DNA of 64,000 nt from Escherichia phage DaisyDussoix. This document shows positions 19,081-29,029 of the stretch, piece by piece. The position numbers and the translations under genes were made by a program. Location of the stretch: the sequence record MZ501058. One strand, given 5' to 3'. How positions within the stretch are numbered: position 1 is the stretch's first letter; each line of letters starts with the position of its first letter. Below the pieces are notes generated by a model. The model saw only the letters and a program-made list of their open reading frames with translations, did no database searches and was not told the origin of the DNA.

Positions 19081-19920
19081 AACAGCGAGCCGATTACGCT
19101 GAGTGAGTTTAGTGATTCCTAATAGGATAGCTATCCCACTGAATAGAGTCGGTGAGTTGGAGACTAGTAAGTACTCTTAGAGAGGCTACGAGCTAACGCT
19201 TATTGCTATTGATAGGGAACTGAAAATCTGCGGAAAACTCGGGAGCTGTCCCGAAATCTCGTAAACTCTTCTCTAGTTTATGTTAGTGGGGTGTCGAACT
19301 GACTTATGTGATAACACTGCCGTCCTAGTATAAACGGTAATATCAAACCGTAACTGGTGGAAGATGCAGGTTCGAATCCTGCGGTCGGAAAGAATCAGAT
19401 AACTCGGGCTTATACCGGATAAGCATTCGCTGCTGTAGTACATACTATGACGGTTCAGGAGGTACGCCGCCTGATCAGTATTAGGTTAGAATCGAAACAG
19501 CTAAACCACGAGGAAACCTGACGGCCTCAATCAAACTCGGAACTCGGGATCACTGCCTAGTGTGTGCCCCGTTTAACCTGAGACTAGGCATCCAGCTTCG
19601 CATCGAAAATCGGAGGTGCGATTCTAACAGACCGCGTGAATATGAGAGTGGGAAATGCTGACATGAGAGATGTCACTAATGGTGCCCAATAGTACAGGTA
19701 ATTCGCGATAATTCCTGTTGAGCGGCAGCAGTAGGCTGGGAGTCATGACCTAAGCCTAACCGAGTTCTTCACATACGGAGAACATAACCACAAAGTCACC
19801 CTGACTTAAACTGGAGGATATTATCTGACGGAAGGGCTGCAGAGCTTAATCTGAGGGGGCTGACCCTACCTACCGTCGGGTATCTTTAAGAGCTTTTATA
19901 AGAGTTCTTAAAAATACCTA
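19081..19920 (+). ncRNA. ORF-free transcribed block, candidate stable structured RNA(s) of unknown class
   Basis: 840 nt without ORF of 60 aa or more, directly downstream of a consensus T5-type promoter; many GC hairpins (GGATAGCTATCC, CGGGAGCTGTCCCG, GCCTAGT...ACTAGGC) and a tRNA-like T-arm at 19366-19382 that lacks a pairing acceptor strand. Confidence 0.3.
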
Positions 19921-19922
19921 AA

Positions 19923-19994
19923 CGGGGTGTAGTCTAAGGGATAGGCAGGAGTCTTCTAAATTCCTTTATGCAGGTTCGAATCCTGTCACCTCGG
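19923..19994 (+). tRNA. tRNA-Arg (anticodon UCU)
   Basis: Acceptor CGGGGTG/CACCTCG, loop CTTCTAA, T-arm GCAGG-TTCGAAT-CCTGT, encoded CCA. Confidence 0.8.
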
Positions 19995-20023
19995 CCAATT
20001 TTATTAACTGCTAGGAAAATAAA

Positions 20024-21911: not shown

Positions 21912-21986
21912 GGTTCTCAAGCTCATATGGTATGAGCACCCAGCTCATAACTGGAAGGTACGTAGGTTCGAATCCTCGGGGAGCCA
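21912..21986 (+). tRNA. tRNA-Met or Ile2 (anticodon CAU)
   Basis: Acceptor GGTTCTC/GGGAGCC with G-U pairs, D-stem GCTC/GAGC, loop CTCATAA, CCA; T-stem pairs imperfectly. Confidence 0.7.
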
Positions 21987-24803: not shown

Positions 24804-24908
24804 CCAAATTCTGTGTAGAGTTAAGTAAACCGGTAGCCAACCAGCTATCATTGCTGACATCGAATTCAGCCACAGATACCATTTTCATTAATAACTGAGG
24901 AAACAAGC

Positions 24909-25674: not shown

Positions 25675-25788
25675 CATTCTAGCGTGGTTGATGGGGAAAC
25701 CAGCTTGGCTAGGGCAGAAGCTCGTTCGATTCGAGTGAAAGAATGGTTCTCGTAAGTCCGCACAAGTGATAATAGGTTCGAGTCCTGT
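25675..25788 (+). ncRNA. tRNA-like structured RNA candidate (two T-arm-like hairpins, 7-bp closing stem)
   Basis: 5' ATTCTAG pairs with 3' CTAGAAT; internal CTCG-TTCGATT-CGAG and ATAGG-TTCGAGT-CCTGT hairpins; too long for a tRNA. Confidence 0.3.
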
Positions 25789-25805
25789 CTAGAATGACAC
25801 TATAA

Positions 25806-25930
25806 AGTTTACTTATTATGTAGGTTCCGATAGATCGGAGGGTCTATTCTGGCATTTAAGAGAGGTCTCGCAAACGTCTTTGTCAGCCGTGGGGTTGGTA
25901 GCCTCCAGGTGGCCTACACAATAAGTAAAT
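25806..25930 (+). ncRNA. structured RNA candidate closed by about 16-bp terminal stem
   Basis: 5' TTACTTATTATGTAGG pairs with 3' CCTACACAATAAGTAA with one mismatch; no ORF. Confidence 0.3.
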
Positions 25931-27101: not shown

Positions 27102-27461
27102 TTGCAAATGCAATTATCAAGCAAGATTCAAGGTTATTTCGGTCATGTAACAATGGAGTTCGCTATCTCTAAAGGTTGGGACTTCGAACAAGATTTAGCT
27201 GAGTTCTACAAAGATATTGATCTGAACGTACCATACATGGGACTTTCTACTGGTCAGGAGATCACAGAAGCCGATGTATTCAAGGCAAGTCAAGGTGAGG
27301 TAACACCTAGTTTTGCCGAGTTCTGGTTAGGCATTACGTTAAAAGAAGATGCACCAGATAGTGGTGTACTAATGTCTAGTATGCACTCTGGAAGTTCCGA
27401 TTACCTTTTCATTAGCGATGTTAAGGAAATACAAGAAGTCTGCAAAAATGTACTTGCTTGA
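27102..27461 (+). CDS. hypothetical protein
   Basis: 119 aa ORF with AAGGA RBS. Confidence 0.5.
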   Translation: MQMQLSSKIQGYFGHVTMEFAISKGWDFEQDLAEFYKDIDLNVPYMGLSTGQEITEADVFKASQGEVTPSFAEFWLGITLKEDAPDSGVLMSSMHSGSSDYLFISDVKEIQEVCKNVLA

Positions 27462-27482
27462 TGCTTAATTTCTTGTTATAAT
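27454..27482 (+). promoter_or_regulatory. T5-type early promoter reading into structured RNA 27530-27702
   Basis: TGTACTTGCT ... TCTTGTTATAATATTTATATAAATTGATGGGG. Confidence 0.65.
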
Positions 27483-27529
27483 ATTTATATAAATTGATGG
27501 GGAGAAATCCTCATCATAGTTCACTAAGG

Positions 27530-27702
27530 TATTAGCTCGACCTAGGACTGGCTGCCAAAAAGCACGATCCCTACAATTCGGGAGAAGTTCTAGATTAGTC
27601 CACTAGATTCAGCGGCAACTGAATAGTGTATCGGGTTTGCGAGATGACGCAGTTCCTTCCGCTCGAAGCGAAGGTGCTGTAGTTACGCCGAGCTAATAGC
27701 CT
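27530..27702 (+). ncRNA. structured RNA candidate closed by 9-bp stem
   Basis: 5' ATTAGCTCG pairs with 3' CGAGCTAAT; sits between a T5-type promoter and tRNA-Ala; no ORF, no T-loop. Confidence 0.3.
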
Positions 27703-27720
27703 TAGTAAACTAAATAATTT

Positions 27721-27792
27721 GGGCGAATAGTGTCAGCGGGAGCACACCAGACTTGCAATCTGGTAGGGAGGGTTCGAGTCCCTCTTTGTCCA
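27721..27792 (+). tRNA. tRNA-Ala (anticodon UGC)
   Basis: Acceptor GGGCGAA/TTTGTCC with G3-U70, stem CCAGA/TCTGG, loop CTTGCAA, T-arm GAGGG-TTCGAGT-CCCTC, CCA. Confidence 0.8.
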
Positions 27793-27800
27793 CCAAATTC

Positions 27801-27882
27801 GGGGCTATGCTGGAACTGGTAGACAATACGGCCTTAGATTCCGTAGCTTAAATGCGTGGGAGTTCGAGTCTCCCTAGCCCCA
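27801..27882 (+). tRNA. tRNA-Leu (anticodon UAG), type II
   Basis: Acceptor GGGGCTA/TAGCCCC, stem TACGG/CCGTA, loop containing TAG, long variable arm, T-arm GGGAG-TTCGAGT-CTCCC, CCA. Confidence 0.75.
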
Positions 27883-27902
27883 CCAACTCATAGGATTTAT
27901 GT

Positions 27903-28487
27903 ATGCAGTTTGTACCAATAAAAGATGCACCAGGGTATTTAGTAAATGAGGCGGGGGATGTGTTCTCTACATTTACTAATAAAGTTTTATCAAGATATAT
28001 AGTTGATGGATACCCTGCTGTAAAATTACAGATAAATGGTAAACAAACCTCTGTACTTATACACCGAATTATTTCTCATGTATTTGGGGACTTATATAAT
28101 CTATTTGACCCTGAACTAGAGGTAGATCATAAGGATAGAGATAGACTGAATCTATCTAAAGATAATCTTCAAGTCCTATCAAAAATAGAACATCAGAGGA
28201 AAACTAATAAAGATAATGGGTGGTCTGACAGTAGAGTACCTTGCCCCCTATGTGGGAGTCTAATGCTTCAGAGATCTGTAACATGTACAAATTGTAAGCC
28301 AAAACCTACAGGAAGGTTGATAAAACCAGAATTGTCTTTAGACGACATAACTGAAAAGGTTTTATTAATGGGGTGGGTTAAGGCAGCTAAAGAGTTAGAA
28401 GTATCAGAGTCCACTTTGCGCAGGAGGTATACTAAACTAACTGGATTAAGCCCAAAAGTATTAACAGAACAATGGAAAAGCAAGTAG
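27903..28487 (+). CDS. HNH homing endonuclease, family B
   Basis: 194 aa; EVDHKDRDRLN HNH motif, same architecture as 26007 and 29338. Confidence 0.85.
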   Translation: MQFVPIKDAPGYLVNEAGDVFSTFTNKVLSRYIVDGYPAVKLQINGKQTSVLIHRIISHVFGDLYNLFDPELEVDHKDRDRLNLSKDNLQVLSKIEHQRKTNKDNGWSDSRVPCPLCGSLMLQRSVTCTNCKPKPTGRLIKPELSLDDITEKVLLMGWVKAAKELEVSESTLRRRYTKLTGLSPKVLTEQWKSK

Positions 28488-28660: not shown

Positions 28661-29029
28661 CCAAATCTTGAAGTATGCCGAAATCGGTAGACGGGGCTGC
28701 CTAAAAGGTTTATAGGGAACATCCACTCCCTACAACATACCTCATAAAGCGGCTGAGATAAATGGTCTATCTCGTGAAGGTTCAAGTCCTTCTGCTTCTT
28801 GATACATCTATGGCTCAAAGTGTAACGGTGCTATTTGATGCTCTTGGTAAGACTTCCCCGACATGCGTTCGGGAGTAAGCTGCTAAGACTAGAGTAGAAG
28901 AGTTTCTGAGAGCCGCCACAATTGAAAATTCGTACTCGTCTTGAGCTGCGCGCAATAGGAGATAACTTGATTAGTATTCTAGAACATGCTAATTGAGGAA
29001 GGTTTCGCTAACCCTGCGAGTTTTCAATT

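What the first reader, a model, noticed from the sequence alone, without database searches (positions are those of the whole stretch)
27530..27702. Promoter-proximal structured RNA candidate ahead of the Ala and Leu tRNAs
A 9-bp helix (ATTAGCTCG/CGAGCTAAT) closes about 170 nt of ORF-free sequence immediately downstream of a T5-type promoter and upstream of two tRNAs. It has no T-loop or anticodon arm. It may be a leader or processing element or an independent small RNA.
Basis: seen in the sequence. Interest (0 to 1): 0.5.

Follow-up and report, generated by a model that had tools for sequence, protein, structure and literature searches.

The report
Known phage T5 stable RNA "RNA2H"
The flagged stretch is the gene for RNA2H, a small non-coding RNA long annotated in phage T5 as "stable RNA with unknown functions"; comparing many T5-like phages shows that it folds into a conserved double-pseudoknot structure closed by a long stem, but what it does is still unknown.

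Summary
The helix is there: 10 bp (27530-27539/27689-27698), not 9. It continues outward, across one bulged G (27699), into a further 13 bp (27517-29/27700-12). The region has no ORF, lies downstream of a TTGCTT-17-TATAAT promoter and upstream of tRNA-Ala and tRNA-Leu, and has no tRNA features.

It is not new. It is 97% identical to the misc_RNA "rna2H / RNA2H, stable RNA with unknown functions" annotated in the phage T5 records and in Salmonella phage 5, downstream of their annotated promoter P13b. No Rfam family matches it, and I found no paper about it.

What I add is a structural model. Homologues occur in hundreds of Tequintavirus and Epseptimavirus records, and also in Klebsiella (Sugarlandvirus), Enterobacter, Providencia (Priunavirus) and Proteus (Novosibvirus) phages. 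All keep the same plan: a 13-bp outer stem, a bulged G, a 9-10-bp inner stem, two adjacent hairpins whose loops both pair with one 5' strand (two pseudoknots), and two variable peripheral hairpins. Compensatory changes support the outer and inner stems, both hairpins, both peripheral hairpins and the first pseudoknot.

Best reading: a stable RNA acting in trans, cut out of an early transcript at the long stem (inferred to be by RNase III). It is dispensable. Its function is unknown; a role in host interaction is a guess.

The parts
27454..27482 (+). Sigma-70-type early promoter, homologous to T5 promoter P13b: -35 TTGCTT (27454-27459), 17-nt spacer, -10 TATAAT (27477-27482). The inferred transcription start is near 27489.
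   Evidence: Read from the sequence. The homologous site is annotated as promoter P13b in T5 and Salmonella phage 5. It is conserved upstream of the RNA in most relatives, including Klebsiella phages. The start site is an inference.
27495..27516 (+). Leader hairpin (UGAUGGGGA-GAAA-UCCUCAUCA, 9 bp) between the promoter and the outer stem.
   Evidence: Precursor fold. A G.U pair becomes A-U in relatives. The hairpin is absent in Klebsiella phages, so it is probably not part of the core.
27517..27529 (+). P0, 5' strand of the outer stem (UAGUUCACUAAGG). It pairs with 27700-27712.
   Evidence: The stem is 13 bp in all seven representatives; 3 pairs show compensatory changes, and it is a perfect 13 bp in the Providencia and Proteus phages.
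27530..27539 (+). P1, 5' strand of the inner closing stem (UAUUAGCUCG).
   Evidence: Across 49 distinct sequences, 99.8% of cells are paired and 4 pairs covary.
27545..27549 (+). PK1, 5' strand (GGACU). It pairs with the P3 loop at 27597-27601 (AGUCC).
   Evidence: Haplotypes include GGACU:AGUCC, GAGCC:GGCUC, GAGUC:GACUC and GAACC:GGUUC. Four of the 5 pairs covary and 99.6% of cells are paired, against 24-44% when the partner is slid.
27553..27556 (+). PK2, 5' strand (UGCC). It pairs with the P4 loop at 27614-27617 (GGCA).
   Evidence: Variants are UGCC:GGCA, UACC:GGUA and CGCC:GGCG. One pair covaries and 93.9% of cells are paired. Support is weaker than for PK1.
27557..27561 (+). A-rich linker (AAAAA), 4-6 nt in the T5-like phages (longer, AACAAAA, in Providencia PR1) and conserved in all clades.
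27562..27565 (+). Px, 5' strand (GCAC). It pairs with 27626-27629 (GUGU) and closes the junction that holds P2, P3 and P4.
   Evidence: All cells are paired. Variants are ACAC:GUGU in Klebsiella phages, AGAC:GUCU in Providencia and AUGC:GCAU in Proteus. The helix is short, so this is tentative.
27566..27585 (+). P2, a variable peripheral hairpin (stem 27568-27571 / 27580-27583). In relatives it is replaced by at least four unrelated longer hairpins.
27589..27607 (+). P3 hairpin (UCUAG / CUAGA). Its 9-nt loop carries the 3' strand of PK1 (AGUCC, 27597-27601).
   Evidence: Double compensatory change in Salmonella phage SE20 (UCUGA/UCAGA). All 4 outer pairs covary across clades.
27608..27623 (+). 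P4 hairpin (UUCAG / CUGAA). Its loop CGGCAA carries the 3' strand of PK2 (GGCA, 27614-27617).
   Evidence: The stem is ACGC/GCGU in Klebsiella phages, AGGU/ACCU in the Enterobacter phage and GGAU/AUCC in Proteus.
27626..27645 (+). Px, 3' strand (GUGU, 27626-27629), followed by a conserved junction (AUCGGGUUUG...).
27646..27684 (+). P5, a long peripheral hairpin. It comes in two very different sequence versions that keep the same pairing.
   Evidence: 11 pairs, 7 of them changed on both sides, 99.7% of cells paired.
27689..27698 (+). P1, 3' strand (CGAGCUAAUA).
27699..27699 (+). Bulged G between P1 and P0, invariant in every homologue examined, including the Providencia and Proteus phages.
27700..27712 (+). 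P0, 3' strand (CCUUAGUAAACUA). The annotated 3' end of RNA2H (C27701) lies 2 bp into this strand.
27721..27885 (+). tRNA-Ala (UGC, 27721-27795) and tRNA-Leu (UAG, 27801-27885), inferred to be co-transcribed with RNA2H. RNase P cutting at the 5' end of tRNA-Ala would free the 3' side of the RNA2H precursor.
   Evidence: Co-transcription and the RNase P step are inferences.

Best explanation
This is the window's copy of the phage T5 gene rna2H, a roughly 172-nt stable non-coding RNA.

Shown here:
- It matches the annotated T5 RNA in sequence, coordinates and gene neighbourhood.
- It lies on the + strand, just downstream of the early promoter P13b.
- It folds into a closed structure. A 10-bp stem (P1) encloses a 25-nt 5' strand that pairs with the loops of two adjacent hairpins, P3 and P4, forming two pseudoknots (PK1 and PK2). 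A short helix (Px) and two variable peripheral hairpins (P2 and P5) complete it.
- The unit is set off from its transcript by a further 13-bp stem (P0), separated from P1 by one invariant bulged G.
- This plan is conserved, with compensatory changes, across several Demerecviridae lineages.

Inferred:
- The roughly 23-bp P0/P1 helix is a measured processing site, most likely for RNase III. The annotated ends (5' flush with P1; 3' end at the bulged G plus two nucleotides of P0) are what a cut staggered by 2 bp would leave.
- RNase P cutting at tRNA-Ala frees the 3' side.
- The excised RNA, capped by P1, is stable and acts in trans through its compact pseudoknotted core, binding a protein or a small molecule.

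Guessed: because the RNA is dispensable and lies in the tRNA-rich accessory region that others have described as an anti-defence island, a role in host takeover or counter-defence is the most plausible. Its function remains unknown.
For: Identity:
- The window segment 27530-27701 is 97.1% identical over 172 of 172 nt to T5 RNA2H.
- T5 records AY543070 and AY692264 and Salmonella phage 5 record AJ604531 annotate it as a stable RNA with unknown functions, between promoter P13b and tRNA-Ala.

Structure:
- The precursor fold has z = -6.2.
- On 28 T5-type sequences, 97.6% of cells are paired, 13 pairs are changed on both sides, no shuffle out of 500 reaches the observed percentage paired, double-change counts or covariation score, and controls with the partner slid give 28-44%.
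- On 49 distinct sequences, P1, P3, P4 and PK1 each have 4 covarying pairs and P0 has 3.
- Seven representatives from six host genera fit the same ordered set of helices, with P0 of 13 bp, a bulged G and P1 of 9-10 bp.

Strand: G.U wobbles on the + strand would be A.C mismatches on the - strand.

Distant homologues were found by profile HMM and by covariance model.

Autonomous module:
- Sequence similarity between phages begins and ends exactly at P0, while the upstream sequence and the downstream gene vary.
- Phage FFH1 has lost all but 46 nt of the RNA through a deletion between GCTCGA repeats, so the RNA is dispensable.

Context: the tRNA-rich region of T5 is a dispensable 'anti-defence island' according to the preprint doi 10.1101/2023.03.15.532788.
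Against: - I could not see any direct RNA data. That a discrete stable transcript exists rests on the wording of GenBank annotations, and I could not find the underlying experiments.
- RNase III cleavage is inferred only from the geometry of the helix.
- PK2 and Px are short, with little or no covariation, and in the Providencia and Proteus sequences the short helices were assigned by eye.
- Energy-based nested folding prefers a different helix (27541-27549 with 27586-27593), which competes with P3 and PK1. It could be a real alternative state.
- Nothing points to a specific function. The link to anti-defence is guilt by location only.
- In most phages the RNA sits directly after a promoter, which also fits a role in cis.
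Confidence: 0.7

Rival explanations
1. It acts in cis as a 5' element of the transcription unit: a leader that controls processing, stability or read-through of the downstream tRNAs and genes. Possible forms are a protective 5' structure, a maturation switch that depends on RNase III, or a promoter-proximal antitermination RNA like the put RNAs of phage HK022. In this reading it is not a free-standing RNA.
For: In T5-type, Enterobacter and Klebsiella phages it sits directly after a strong sigma-70 promoter. In Klebsiella phages the inferred start site coincides with the first base of P0. The 3' strand of P0 ends 2 to 13 nt before a ribosome-binding site or a tRNA. There is one copy per genome.
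Against: The downstream neighbour varies: three versions of tRNA-Ala, an HNH endonuclease, Cys-rich ORFs and others. Several Epseptimavirus genomes lack the adjacent promoter. A simple hairpin would be enough to protect a 5' end, yet the double pseudoknot is conserved across lineages. The annotators recorded it as a discrete stable RNA. FFH1 keeps the promoter and tRNAs without it.
Confidence: 0.17
2. It is a ligand-sensing or catalytic RNA, that is, a new riboswitch-like aptamer or a ribozyme. Its conserved pseudoknotted core would bind a metabolite or signalling nucleotide, or carry out cleavage or ligation.
For: The core is compact and conserved, with two pseudoknots, conserved junction nucleotides and freely swapped peripheral hairpins. 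That pattern is typical of aptamers and ribozymes.
Against: None of the 4227 Rfam families matches it, even at E-values up to 10. There is no terminator or sequestering stem downstream that could serve as an expression platform. No cleavage-site signature was identified. This reading overlaps with the best explanation rather than excluding it.
Confidence: 0.08
3. It is a tRNA-like mimic, processed by RNase P and ending in CCA, like the neighbouring T5 'tRNA-like' RNAs RNA1, RNA2 and RNA3. It would act as a decoy for enzymes that act on tRNA.
For: It lies in the tRNA cluster. P1 is followed by G-C-C, which resembles a discriminator base plus CC, and the annotation ends exactly there. Neighbouring annotated RNAs are tRNA-like.
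Against: ARAGORN and the Rfam tRNA model find nothing in it. The two C residues are base-paired in P0 in the precursor. In the Providencia and Proteus homologues the sequence after P1 is G-C-U, not G-C-C, while the P0 pairing and the bulged G are kept. It has no sequence similarity to RNA2 or RNA1.
Confidence: 0.04
4. It is a chance inverted repeat, or a signal at the DNA level, or a small protein gene on the opposite strand as some phage annotations call it. In this reading there is no structured RNA.
For: A 9-bp inverted repeat alone occurs in 15% of shuffles. A few records place 'hypothetical protein' CDS over the homologous stretch.
Against: Compensatory changes occur in nine helices and G.U wobbles are specific to the + strand. 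The precursor fold has z = -6.2. There is no ORF of 20 aa or more in the window. The element is conserved across Demerecviridae lineages with different sequences but the same pairing.
Confidence: 0.01

Closest known systems
Phage T5 RNA2H (misc_RNA rna2H in AY543070.1, AY692264.1 and NC_005859.1; 'RNA 2H' in Salmonella phage 5, AJ604531.1)
   Same: It is the same gene. It is 97% identical over 172 nt, with the same position between promoter P13b and tRNA-Ala/tRNA-Leu and the same ends.
   Different: In this window a 119-aa ORF lies between tRNA-Val and the promoter; T5 lacks it. The public annotation gives no structure and no function.
Stable RNAs of the T-even phage tRNA cluster (T4 species 1 and 2 RNAs, rnaC and rnaD). 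This comparison rests on my own knowledge and was not tested here.
   Same: They are small stable phage RNAs of unknown function, encoded among the phage tRNA genes, co-transcribed with them and matured by host RNA-processing enzymes. As I recall it, T4 species 1 RNA can be cut by RNase III in vitro.
   Different: No sequence relationship was tested or is expected. The host range and phage family differ. I know of no double-pseudoknot architecture reported for them.
RNase III processing stems (rRNA precursor stalks, T7 early mRNA R sites). This is established knowledge.
   Same: A helix of about two turns, interrupted by a bulge or internal loop, brackets an RNA that is to be released. The annotated ends of RNA2H fit a cut staggered by 2 bp. 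The lengths of 13 bp and 9-10 bp on either side of an invariant bulged G are conserved.
   Different: Cleavage has not been demonstrated. What the helix encloses is a pseudoknotted non-coding RNA, not an rRNA or a simple hairpin.
Large ornate phage-associated RNAs found next to tRNA genes (GOLLD, ROOL). This is from my own knowledge plus the Rfam scan.
   Same: They are highly structured non-coding RNAs of unknown function, carried by phages and located beside tRNA genes.
   Different: RNA2H is 150-190 nt, whereas those are roughly 600-800 nt. There was no Rfam match to them. No relationship is claimed.
HK022 put antitermination RNAs (from my own knowledge)
   Same: A structured RNA placed immediately downstream of an early promoter.
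   Different: The put RNAs are about 70 nt with two hairpins, and they act in cis on RNA polymerase. RNA2H is larger, pseudoknotted, bracketed by a processing-type stem and annotated as a discrete stable RNA. Antitermination was not tested.

Membership tests
T5 RNA2H stable RNA (as annotated in GenBank) | Sequence homology to T5 rna2H over its full length | tested here: met
   172 of 172 nt aligned at 97.1% identity, E = 2e-81. It is 100% identical to Salmonella phage LVR16A.
T5 RNA2H stable RNA (as annotated in GenBank) | Same gene neighbourhood: downstream of promoter P13b, upstream of tRNA-Ala(UGC) and tRNA-Leu(UAG) | tested here: met
T5 RNA2H stable RNA (as annotated in GenBank) | Exists as a discrete, stable transcript in infected cells | not testable with these tools
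   Only the annotation text says so ('stable RNA with unknown functions'). No primary paper was found in the library.
tRNA or tRNA-like RNA | Cloverleaf with a T-arm and T-loop and an anticodon arm | tested here: not met
   ARAGORN finds 23 tRNAs in the window and none at 27530-27700. The Rfam tRNA model does not hit the region even at E-values up to 10.
tRNA or tRNA-like RNA | 3' end of the form N-CCA after the terminal stem, conserved | tested here: not met
   The sequence is G-C-C-U in T5-type phages and G-C-U in Providencia and Proteus phages, and the C residues are paired in P0.
Any curated Rfam family (riboswitches, ribozymes, Y RNA/YrlA, 6S, tmRNA, GOLLD, ROOL, HEARO and others) | Covariance-model match | tested here: not met
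   No match inside the element at the gathering threshold or at E-values up to 10. None on five divergent homologues at E-values up to 1.
RNase III processing stem | Helix of about 20 bp or more (two turns) bracketing the released RNA | tested here: met
   P0 (13 bp) plus P1 (10 bp) across one bulged G. The lengths are conserved in seven representatives.
RNase III processing stem | Actual staggered cleavage that depends on RNase III | not testable with these tools
   The only support is that the annotated ends (27530 and 27701) are consistent with a 2-bp stagger. This is an inference.
Promoter-proximal antitermination RNA (HK022 put type) | Located just downstream of a promoter | tested here: met
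   The promoter is absent in some Epseptimavirus genomes.
Promoter-proximal antitermination RNA (HK022 put type) | Makes RNA polymerase resistant to terminators, acting in cis | not testable with these tools
   This needs transcription assays.

The most novel reading that the evidence does not exclude
RNA2H may be the founding member of a structured-RNA class that has not been described and is conserved across Demerecviridae. In this reading its double-pseudoknot core is a specific binding or catalytic module. For example, it could be a decoy or sponge for a host defence or RNA-processing factor, or an aptamer for a signalling molecule, released by a measured RNase III stem. That would make it an RNA-only accessory or anti-defence factor sitting in the phage's tRNA-rich anti-defence island.
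Probability: 0.25. Interest if true: 0.75.

Novelty: already known. Interest (0 to 1): 0.4.

Why it matters
T5 and its relatives carry several "stable RNAs with unknown functions" among their tRNA genes. These annotations date from about 2004, and as far as I recall the RNAs themselves were seen in the 1980s. None has a known role, a published structure that I could find, or an Rfam family. Most modern annotations of T5-like phages leave this stretch blank or place a spurious ORF on it.

- it names the pairs to mutate and rescue;
- it identifies natural knock-outs and domain swaps;
- it predicts a processing stem;
- it shows conservation from E. coli phages to Proteus phages.

Because the surrounding region is now known to hold counter-defence genes, a function found for RNA2H could reveal counter-defence or host control based on RNA alone. 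As a finding from a genome scan, however, it rediscovers an annotated gene.

Tried and rejected
- Rfam in three modes gave nothing on the element.
- Six literature searches found no paper on RNA2H or the T5 stable RNAs. A seventh attempt failed on term length. Two T5-like genome papers do not mention them.
- The idea that 'RNA2H' means a homologue of the tRNA-like RNA2 failed. There is no sequence similarity to RNA2 or to RNA1, RNAI, RNAIII or RNAIV, and no paralogue in the window.
- IMG/VR scans returned chance hits or known isolates only.
- A pattern scan of bacterial genomes found nothing.
- The metagenome scan added only close relatives and one more Enterobacter-phage-like copy.
A 169-position model worked.
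- No homologue was detected in 25 kb of Vibrio phage pVp-1 or in 40 kb of Pectobacterium phage POP18. For pVp-1 the fetched stretch may simply miss the right region.
- The covariance-model alignment A3 puts the loops out of register, so I did not use it for pseudoknot counts. Those were done with rule-based extraction in Python.
- The nested helix that energy folding prefers (27541-27549 with 27586-27593, and 27602-27606 with 27625-27629) was rejected as the conserved structure. SE20 compensates in P3 and not in that helix, and across clades it is the P3-loop pairing PK1 that keeps covarying; I did not test the rejected helix itself in those clades.
- I looked for a conserved partner protein downstream and found none.
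Full report
**1. What is at the coordinates**

The window is the tRNA-rich early region of a T5-like phage. ARAGORN finds 23 tRNA genes. The best DNA match is Escherichia phage vB_EcoS_I14 at 94.9%.

At the flagged site, ATTAGCTCG (27531-27539) and CGAGCTAAT (27689-27697) are complementary. The T27530-A27698 pair makes the helix 10 bp. No ORF of 20 aa or more lies in 27462-27709 on either strand.

Upstream is TTGCTT (27454-27459), then a 17-nt spacer, then TATAAT (27477-27482). The simple consensus scan missed it because only 3 of 6 bases of the -35 hexamer match. Downstream are tRNA-Ala(UGC) at 27721-27795 and tRNA-Leu(UAG) at 27801-27885. ARAGORN and Rfam find nothing tRNA-like inside the element.

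**2. Is it more than chance?**

The 9-bp helix by itself is not. A perfect inverted repeat of 9 bp, with arms 50-250 nt apart, turns up in 15% of shuffles of 27400-27800, and one of 10 bp in 4%.

But the pairing continues outward. 27517-27529 (UAGUUCACUAAGG) pairs with 27700-27712 (CCUUAGUAAACUA), with one C.A mismatch and with G27699 bulged out. That gives a helix of about 23 bp.

The RNA alone (27530-27698) folds with z = -3.0. The precursor 27484-27720 folds with z = -6.2, and none of 200 shuffles does as well.

**3. It is an annotated gene**

The complete-genome records of T5 (AY543070.1, AY692264.1, and NC_005859.1 as listed) carry a misc_RNA 'rna2H / RNA2H, stable RNA with unknown functions'. 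It is 172 nt long, downstream of a feature annotated 'promoter P13b', and upstream of tRNA-Ala and tRNA-Leu. The tRNA-region record of Salmonella phage 5 (AJ604531.1), which uses the same annotation vocabulary, has the same 'RNA 2H'.

The T5 RNA aligns to window 27530-27701 over all 172 nt at 97.1% identity.

The window also holds the other annotated T5 'stable' or 'tRNA-like' RNAs. RNA2H has no sequence similarity to any of them and no paralogue in the window.

I found no paper on RNA2H in the searchable library. I therefore cannot say whether its ends were determined by experiment. No Rfam family matches it, whether at gathering thresholds, at E-values up to 10, or on divergent homologues.

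**4. Distribution**

- BLAST finds the element in 425 phage records, mostly Salmonella and Escherichia Tequintavirus and Epseptimavirus.
- A profile HMM built from these found a much more divergent copy in Klebsiella phage Uniso31 of the genus Sugarlandvirus. BLAST with that copy matched 79 Klebsiella phage records as well as T5-like records, plus Enterobacter phage KKP_3711.
- A covariance model built from the T5-type alignment recovered all of these at 55-80 bits. It also hit an unannotated 387-nt gap in Providencia phage PR1 of the genus Priunavirus at 20.6 bits. The E-value was about 0.005 with filters on and 0.0006 with filters off.
- BLAST with the PR1 copy led to Proteus phages of the genus Novosibvirus.
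- Metagenome contigs added more copies.
- A pattern scan of 185,579 bacterial and archaeal genomes found none.
- I detected none in 25 kb of Vibrio phage pVp-1 or in Pectobacterium phage POP18.

**5. Structure from comparison**

*T5-type sequences.* On 28 distinct sequences, the structure I propose pairs 97.6% of cells and has 13 pairs changed on both sides. No shuffle out of 500 reaches the observed percentage paired, double-change counts or covariation score. Sliding the 3' partners by 1-3 columns drops pairing to 28-44%.

*All clades.* With the Klebsiella and Enterobacter clades and the metagenome copies added, there are 49 distinct sequences:

| Helix | Cells paired | Pairs that covary |
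|---|---|---|
| P0 | 92.6% | 3 |
| P1 | 99.8% | 4 |
| P3 | 100% | 4 of 4 |
| P4 | 100% | 4 of 4 |

P5 comes in two very different sequence versions that keep 11 pairs, 7 of them changed on both sides. P2 is replaced by at least four unrelated hairpins.

*Pseudoknots.* The 5' strand between P1 and P2 pairs with both hairpin loops.

- PK1 joins 27545-27549 to the P3 loop at 27597-27601. It occurs as GGACU:AGUCC (T5-type), GAGCC:GGCUC and GAGUC:GACUC (Klebsiella phages), GAACC:GGUUC (Enterobacter phage), GAACC:GGUUU (Providencia and Proteus) and GAACU:GGUUC (Proteus). Four of the 5 pairs covary, and 99.6% of cells are paired, against 24-44% when the partner is slid.
- PK2 joins 27553-27556 to the P4 loop at 27614-27617. 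It occurs as UGCC:GGCA, UACC:GGUA and CGCC:GGCG, and it loses its first pair in the Klebsiella phages. It has one covarying pair, so it is plausible but less secure.
- A 4-bp helix, Px (GCAC:GUGU), closes the P2-P3-P4 junction. It is always able to pair but short.

*The competing nested helix.* Energy-based nested folding instead pairs 27541-27549 with 27586-27593. That helix competes with P3 and PK1. Salmonella phage SE20 changes two P3 pairs with exact compensation (UCUAG/CUAGA becomes UCUGA/UCAGA) while damaging the competing helix. Across the other clades it is the P3-loop pairing PK1 that keeps covarying; I did not test the competing helix itself in those clades. I therefore take P3 plus PK1 as the conserved fold. 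I cannot exclude that the competing helix is a transient alternative.

*Strand.* G.U wobbles on the + strand would be A.C mismatches on the other strand. This places the RNA on the + strand.

**6. The closing stem is the most striking conserved feature**

All seven representatives, taken from phages of six host genera, have P0 of exactly 13 bp. It abuts P1 on the 5' side, and on the 3' side a single bulged G separates it from P1, which is 9-10 bp. In Providencia and Proteus phages both stems are perfect, and P1 has an entirely different sequence.

Sequence similarity between phages starts and stops at the ends of P0, and what lies outside varies:
- Upstream there is promoter P13b plus a leader hairpin, or a promoter with no leader (Klebsiella phages), or unrelated sequence.
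- Downstream there are three versions of tRNA-Ala, an HNH-type ORF, Cys-rich ORFs or other ORFs.

This behaves like a self-contained module. It does not behave like the regulator of one particular gene.

**7. How it most likely works**

*Shown:* the identity, the strand, the architecture, the conservation and the modular behaviour. Dispensability is also shown. Phage FFH1 has lost all but 46 nt through a deletion between two GCTCGA repeats, and it keeps the promoter, P0, P1 and the tRNAs.

*Inferred:* transcription starts near 27489 from P13b. In the Klebsiella phages the -10 box is placed so that the transcript would begin at the first base of P0, and tRNA-Ala begins 2 nt after P0 ends. The primary transcript trimmed by RNase P would then be exactly the P0-closed RNA.

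A helix of 23 bp with a conserved bulge and conserved arm lengths is what a measured double-strand-specific processing site looks like. The established examples are the RNase III sites in rRNA stalks and in T7 R sites. The annotated ends of RNA2H fit a cut staggered by 2 bp at the P0/P1 junction: U27530 is flush with P1, and C27701 is the bulged G plus two P0 nucleotides.

The alternative is a tRNA-style end, with RNase P cutting at P1 and 'GCC' standing for a discriminator base plus CC. This is weakened because the two C residues are paired in P0. Also, the Providencia and Proteus homologues have G-C-U at this position while keeping the P0 pairing and the bulge.

*Guessed:* the excised RNA, with its ends protected by P1, would present a compact pseudoknotted core as a binding surface for a protein or a small molecule. 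A preprint describes the tRNA-rich region of T5 as a dispensable 'anti-defence island' of about 8 kb that holds an anti-retron protein, a protective tRNA-Tyr and other inhibitors (doi 10.1101/2023.03.15.532788). That makes a host-interaction or counter-defence role the most plausible guess. It rests on location only.

My confidence by step:

| Claim | Confidence |
|---|---|
| Identity as RNA2H | about 0.97 |
| Overall fold, including PK1 | about 0.85 |
| Processing at the P0/P1 stem by RNase III | about 0.5 |
| Action in trans | about 0.6 |
| Any specific function | below 0.25 |

**8. Rivals**

- *A 5' element acting in cis* (a stabiliser, a processing switch, or a put-like antiterminator). 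This fits the position next to the promoter. It does not fit the varying downstream genes, the genomes that lack the adjacent promoter, or the elaborate conserved fold.
- *A riboswitch-like aptamer or a ribozyme.* The architecture is compatible. There is no known family match and no expression platform. This is a variant of the trans-acting reading more than a competitor.
- *A tRNA mimic.* It fails the tests for tRNA features.
- *Chance, a DNA signal, or a coding region on the opposite strand.* The covariation excludes these.

**9. Comparison with what is known, and novelty**

The thing itself is already known. It is T5 RNA2H, annotated since the mid-2000s, and this window's copy is an ordinary orthologue. 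It is 100% identical to the copy in Salmonella phage LVR16A.

As far as I can tell from Rfam and the searchable literature, the following are undescribed:
- the structural model (a double pseudoknot and a measured P0-G-P1 stem);
- the modular swapping of P2 and P5;
- the spread of the family to Sugarlandvirus, Priunavirus and Novosibvirus.

In kind, it resembles the stable RNAs of the T4 tRNA cluster and the ornate phage RNAs found beside tRNA genes (GOLLD, ROOL). I claim no homology with either.

**10. Verdict**

As a scan finding it rediscovers an annotated gene, so the novelty rating is 'already known'. I score interest at 0.4. The function of these T5 RNAs is an old open question, and the comparative structure derived here makes it directly testable.

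Noticed in passing
window 24809-24881, 25675-25799, 25818-25920, 28667-28808, 28812-28918, 28923-29028: The window also holds homologues of the other annotated T5 RNAs of unknown function. RNA3 is 100% identical to the Salmonella phage 5 copy. The identities to T5 are: RNA2 95%, RNAIV 96%, RNA1 85%, RNAI 92%, RNAIII 98%. None has an Rfam family other than weak tRNA-like hits. They could be analysed by covariation in the same way as RNA2H.
   Followed up: partly
window about 19647-19815 (upstream of tRNA-Arg 19923-19997): Salmonella phage 5 annotates a 785-nt 'RNAX, stable RNA with unknown functions' immediately upstream of tRNA-Arg. Only nt 499-669 of it match this window, at 89%. A large stable RNA beside a phage tRNA gene recalls GOLLD and ROOL, but nothing in Rfam matched at gathering thresholds.
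   Followed up: partly
window 21912-21986 and 19319-19390: Rfam's tRNA model reports two extra tRNA-like hits that ARAGORN did not call: 38.2 bits at 21912-21986, and 29.3 bits (just at threshold) at 19319-19390. The second lies inside the RNAX-equivalent region.
   Followed up: no
window 27102-27461: A 119-aa ORF lies between tRNA-Val and promoter P13b, and its stop codon sits just after the -35 box. T5 itself lacks this ORF (tRNA-Val abuts the promoter there), but many T5-like phages have it, annotated as a hypothetical protein.
   Followed up: no
L008 (Escherichia phage FFH1, NC_024139.1) 401-446: This is a natural knock-out. RNA2H is reduced to 46 nt by a deletion between two GCTCGA direct repeats, one at the end of the P1 5' strand and one inside P5. 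P0, P1, the promoter and the tRNAs remain.
   Followed up: yes
L003:622-939 (Salmonella phage STyj5-1) and L101 from about 375 (Enterobacter phage KKP_3711): In some phages RNA2H is followed directly by small Cys-rich ORFs that share a C-x-C-G-x-N-x-F-H ... Y-G-x-D-G motif, instead of by tRNA-Ala. In others an HNH-type ORF or unrelated ORFs follow. Their function is unknown.
   Followed up: partly
window 27903-28487: A 194-aa ORF lies right after tRNA-Leu, at the position where T5 has the HNH homing endonuclease gene hegC (H-N-H endonuclease TflI) and related phages annotate an HNH endonuclease. Homing endonucleases scattered through the tRNA region may drive the module swapping seen around RNA2H and inside it (versions of P2 and P5).
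   Followed up: no
L104:168-326 and L105:176-325 (Klebsiella phages), and several T5-like records listed: Automatic annotation in several public phage genomes places 'hypothetical protein' CDS, some of them on the opposite strand, across the RNA2H homologue. Given the covariation, these are probably mis-annotations.
   Followed up: partly
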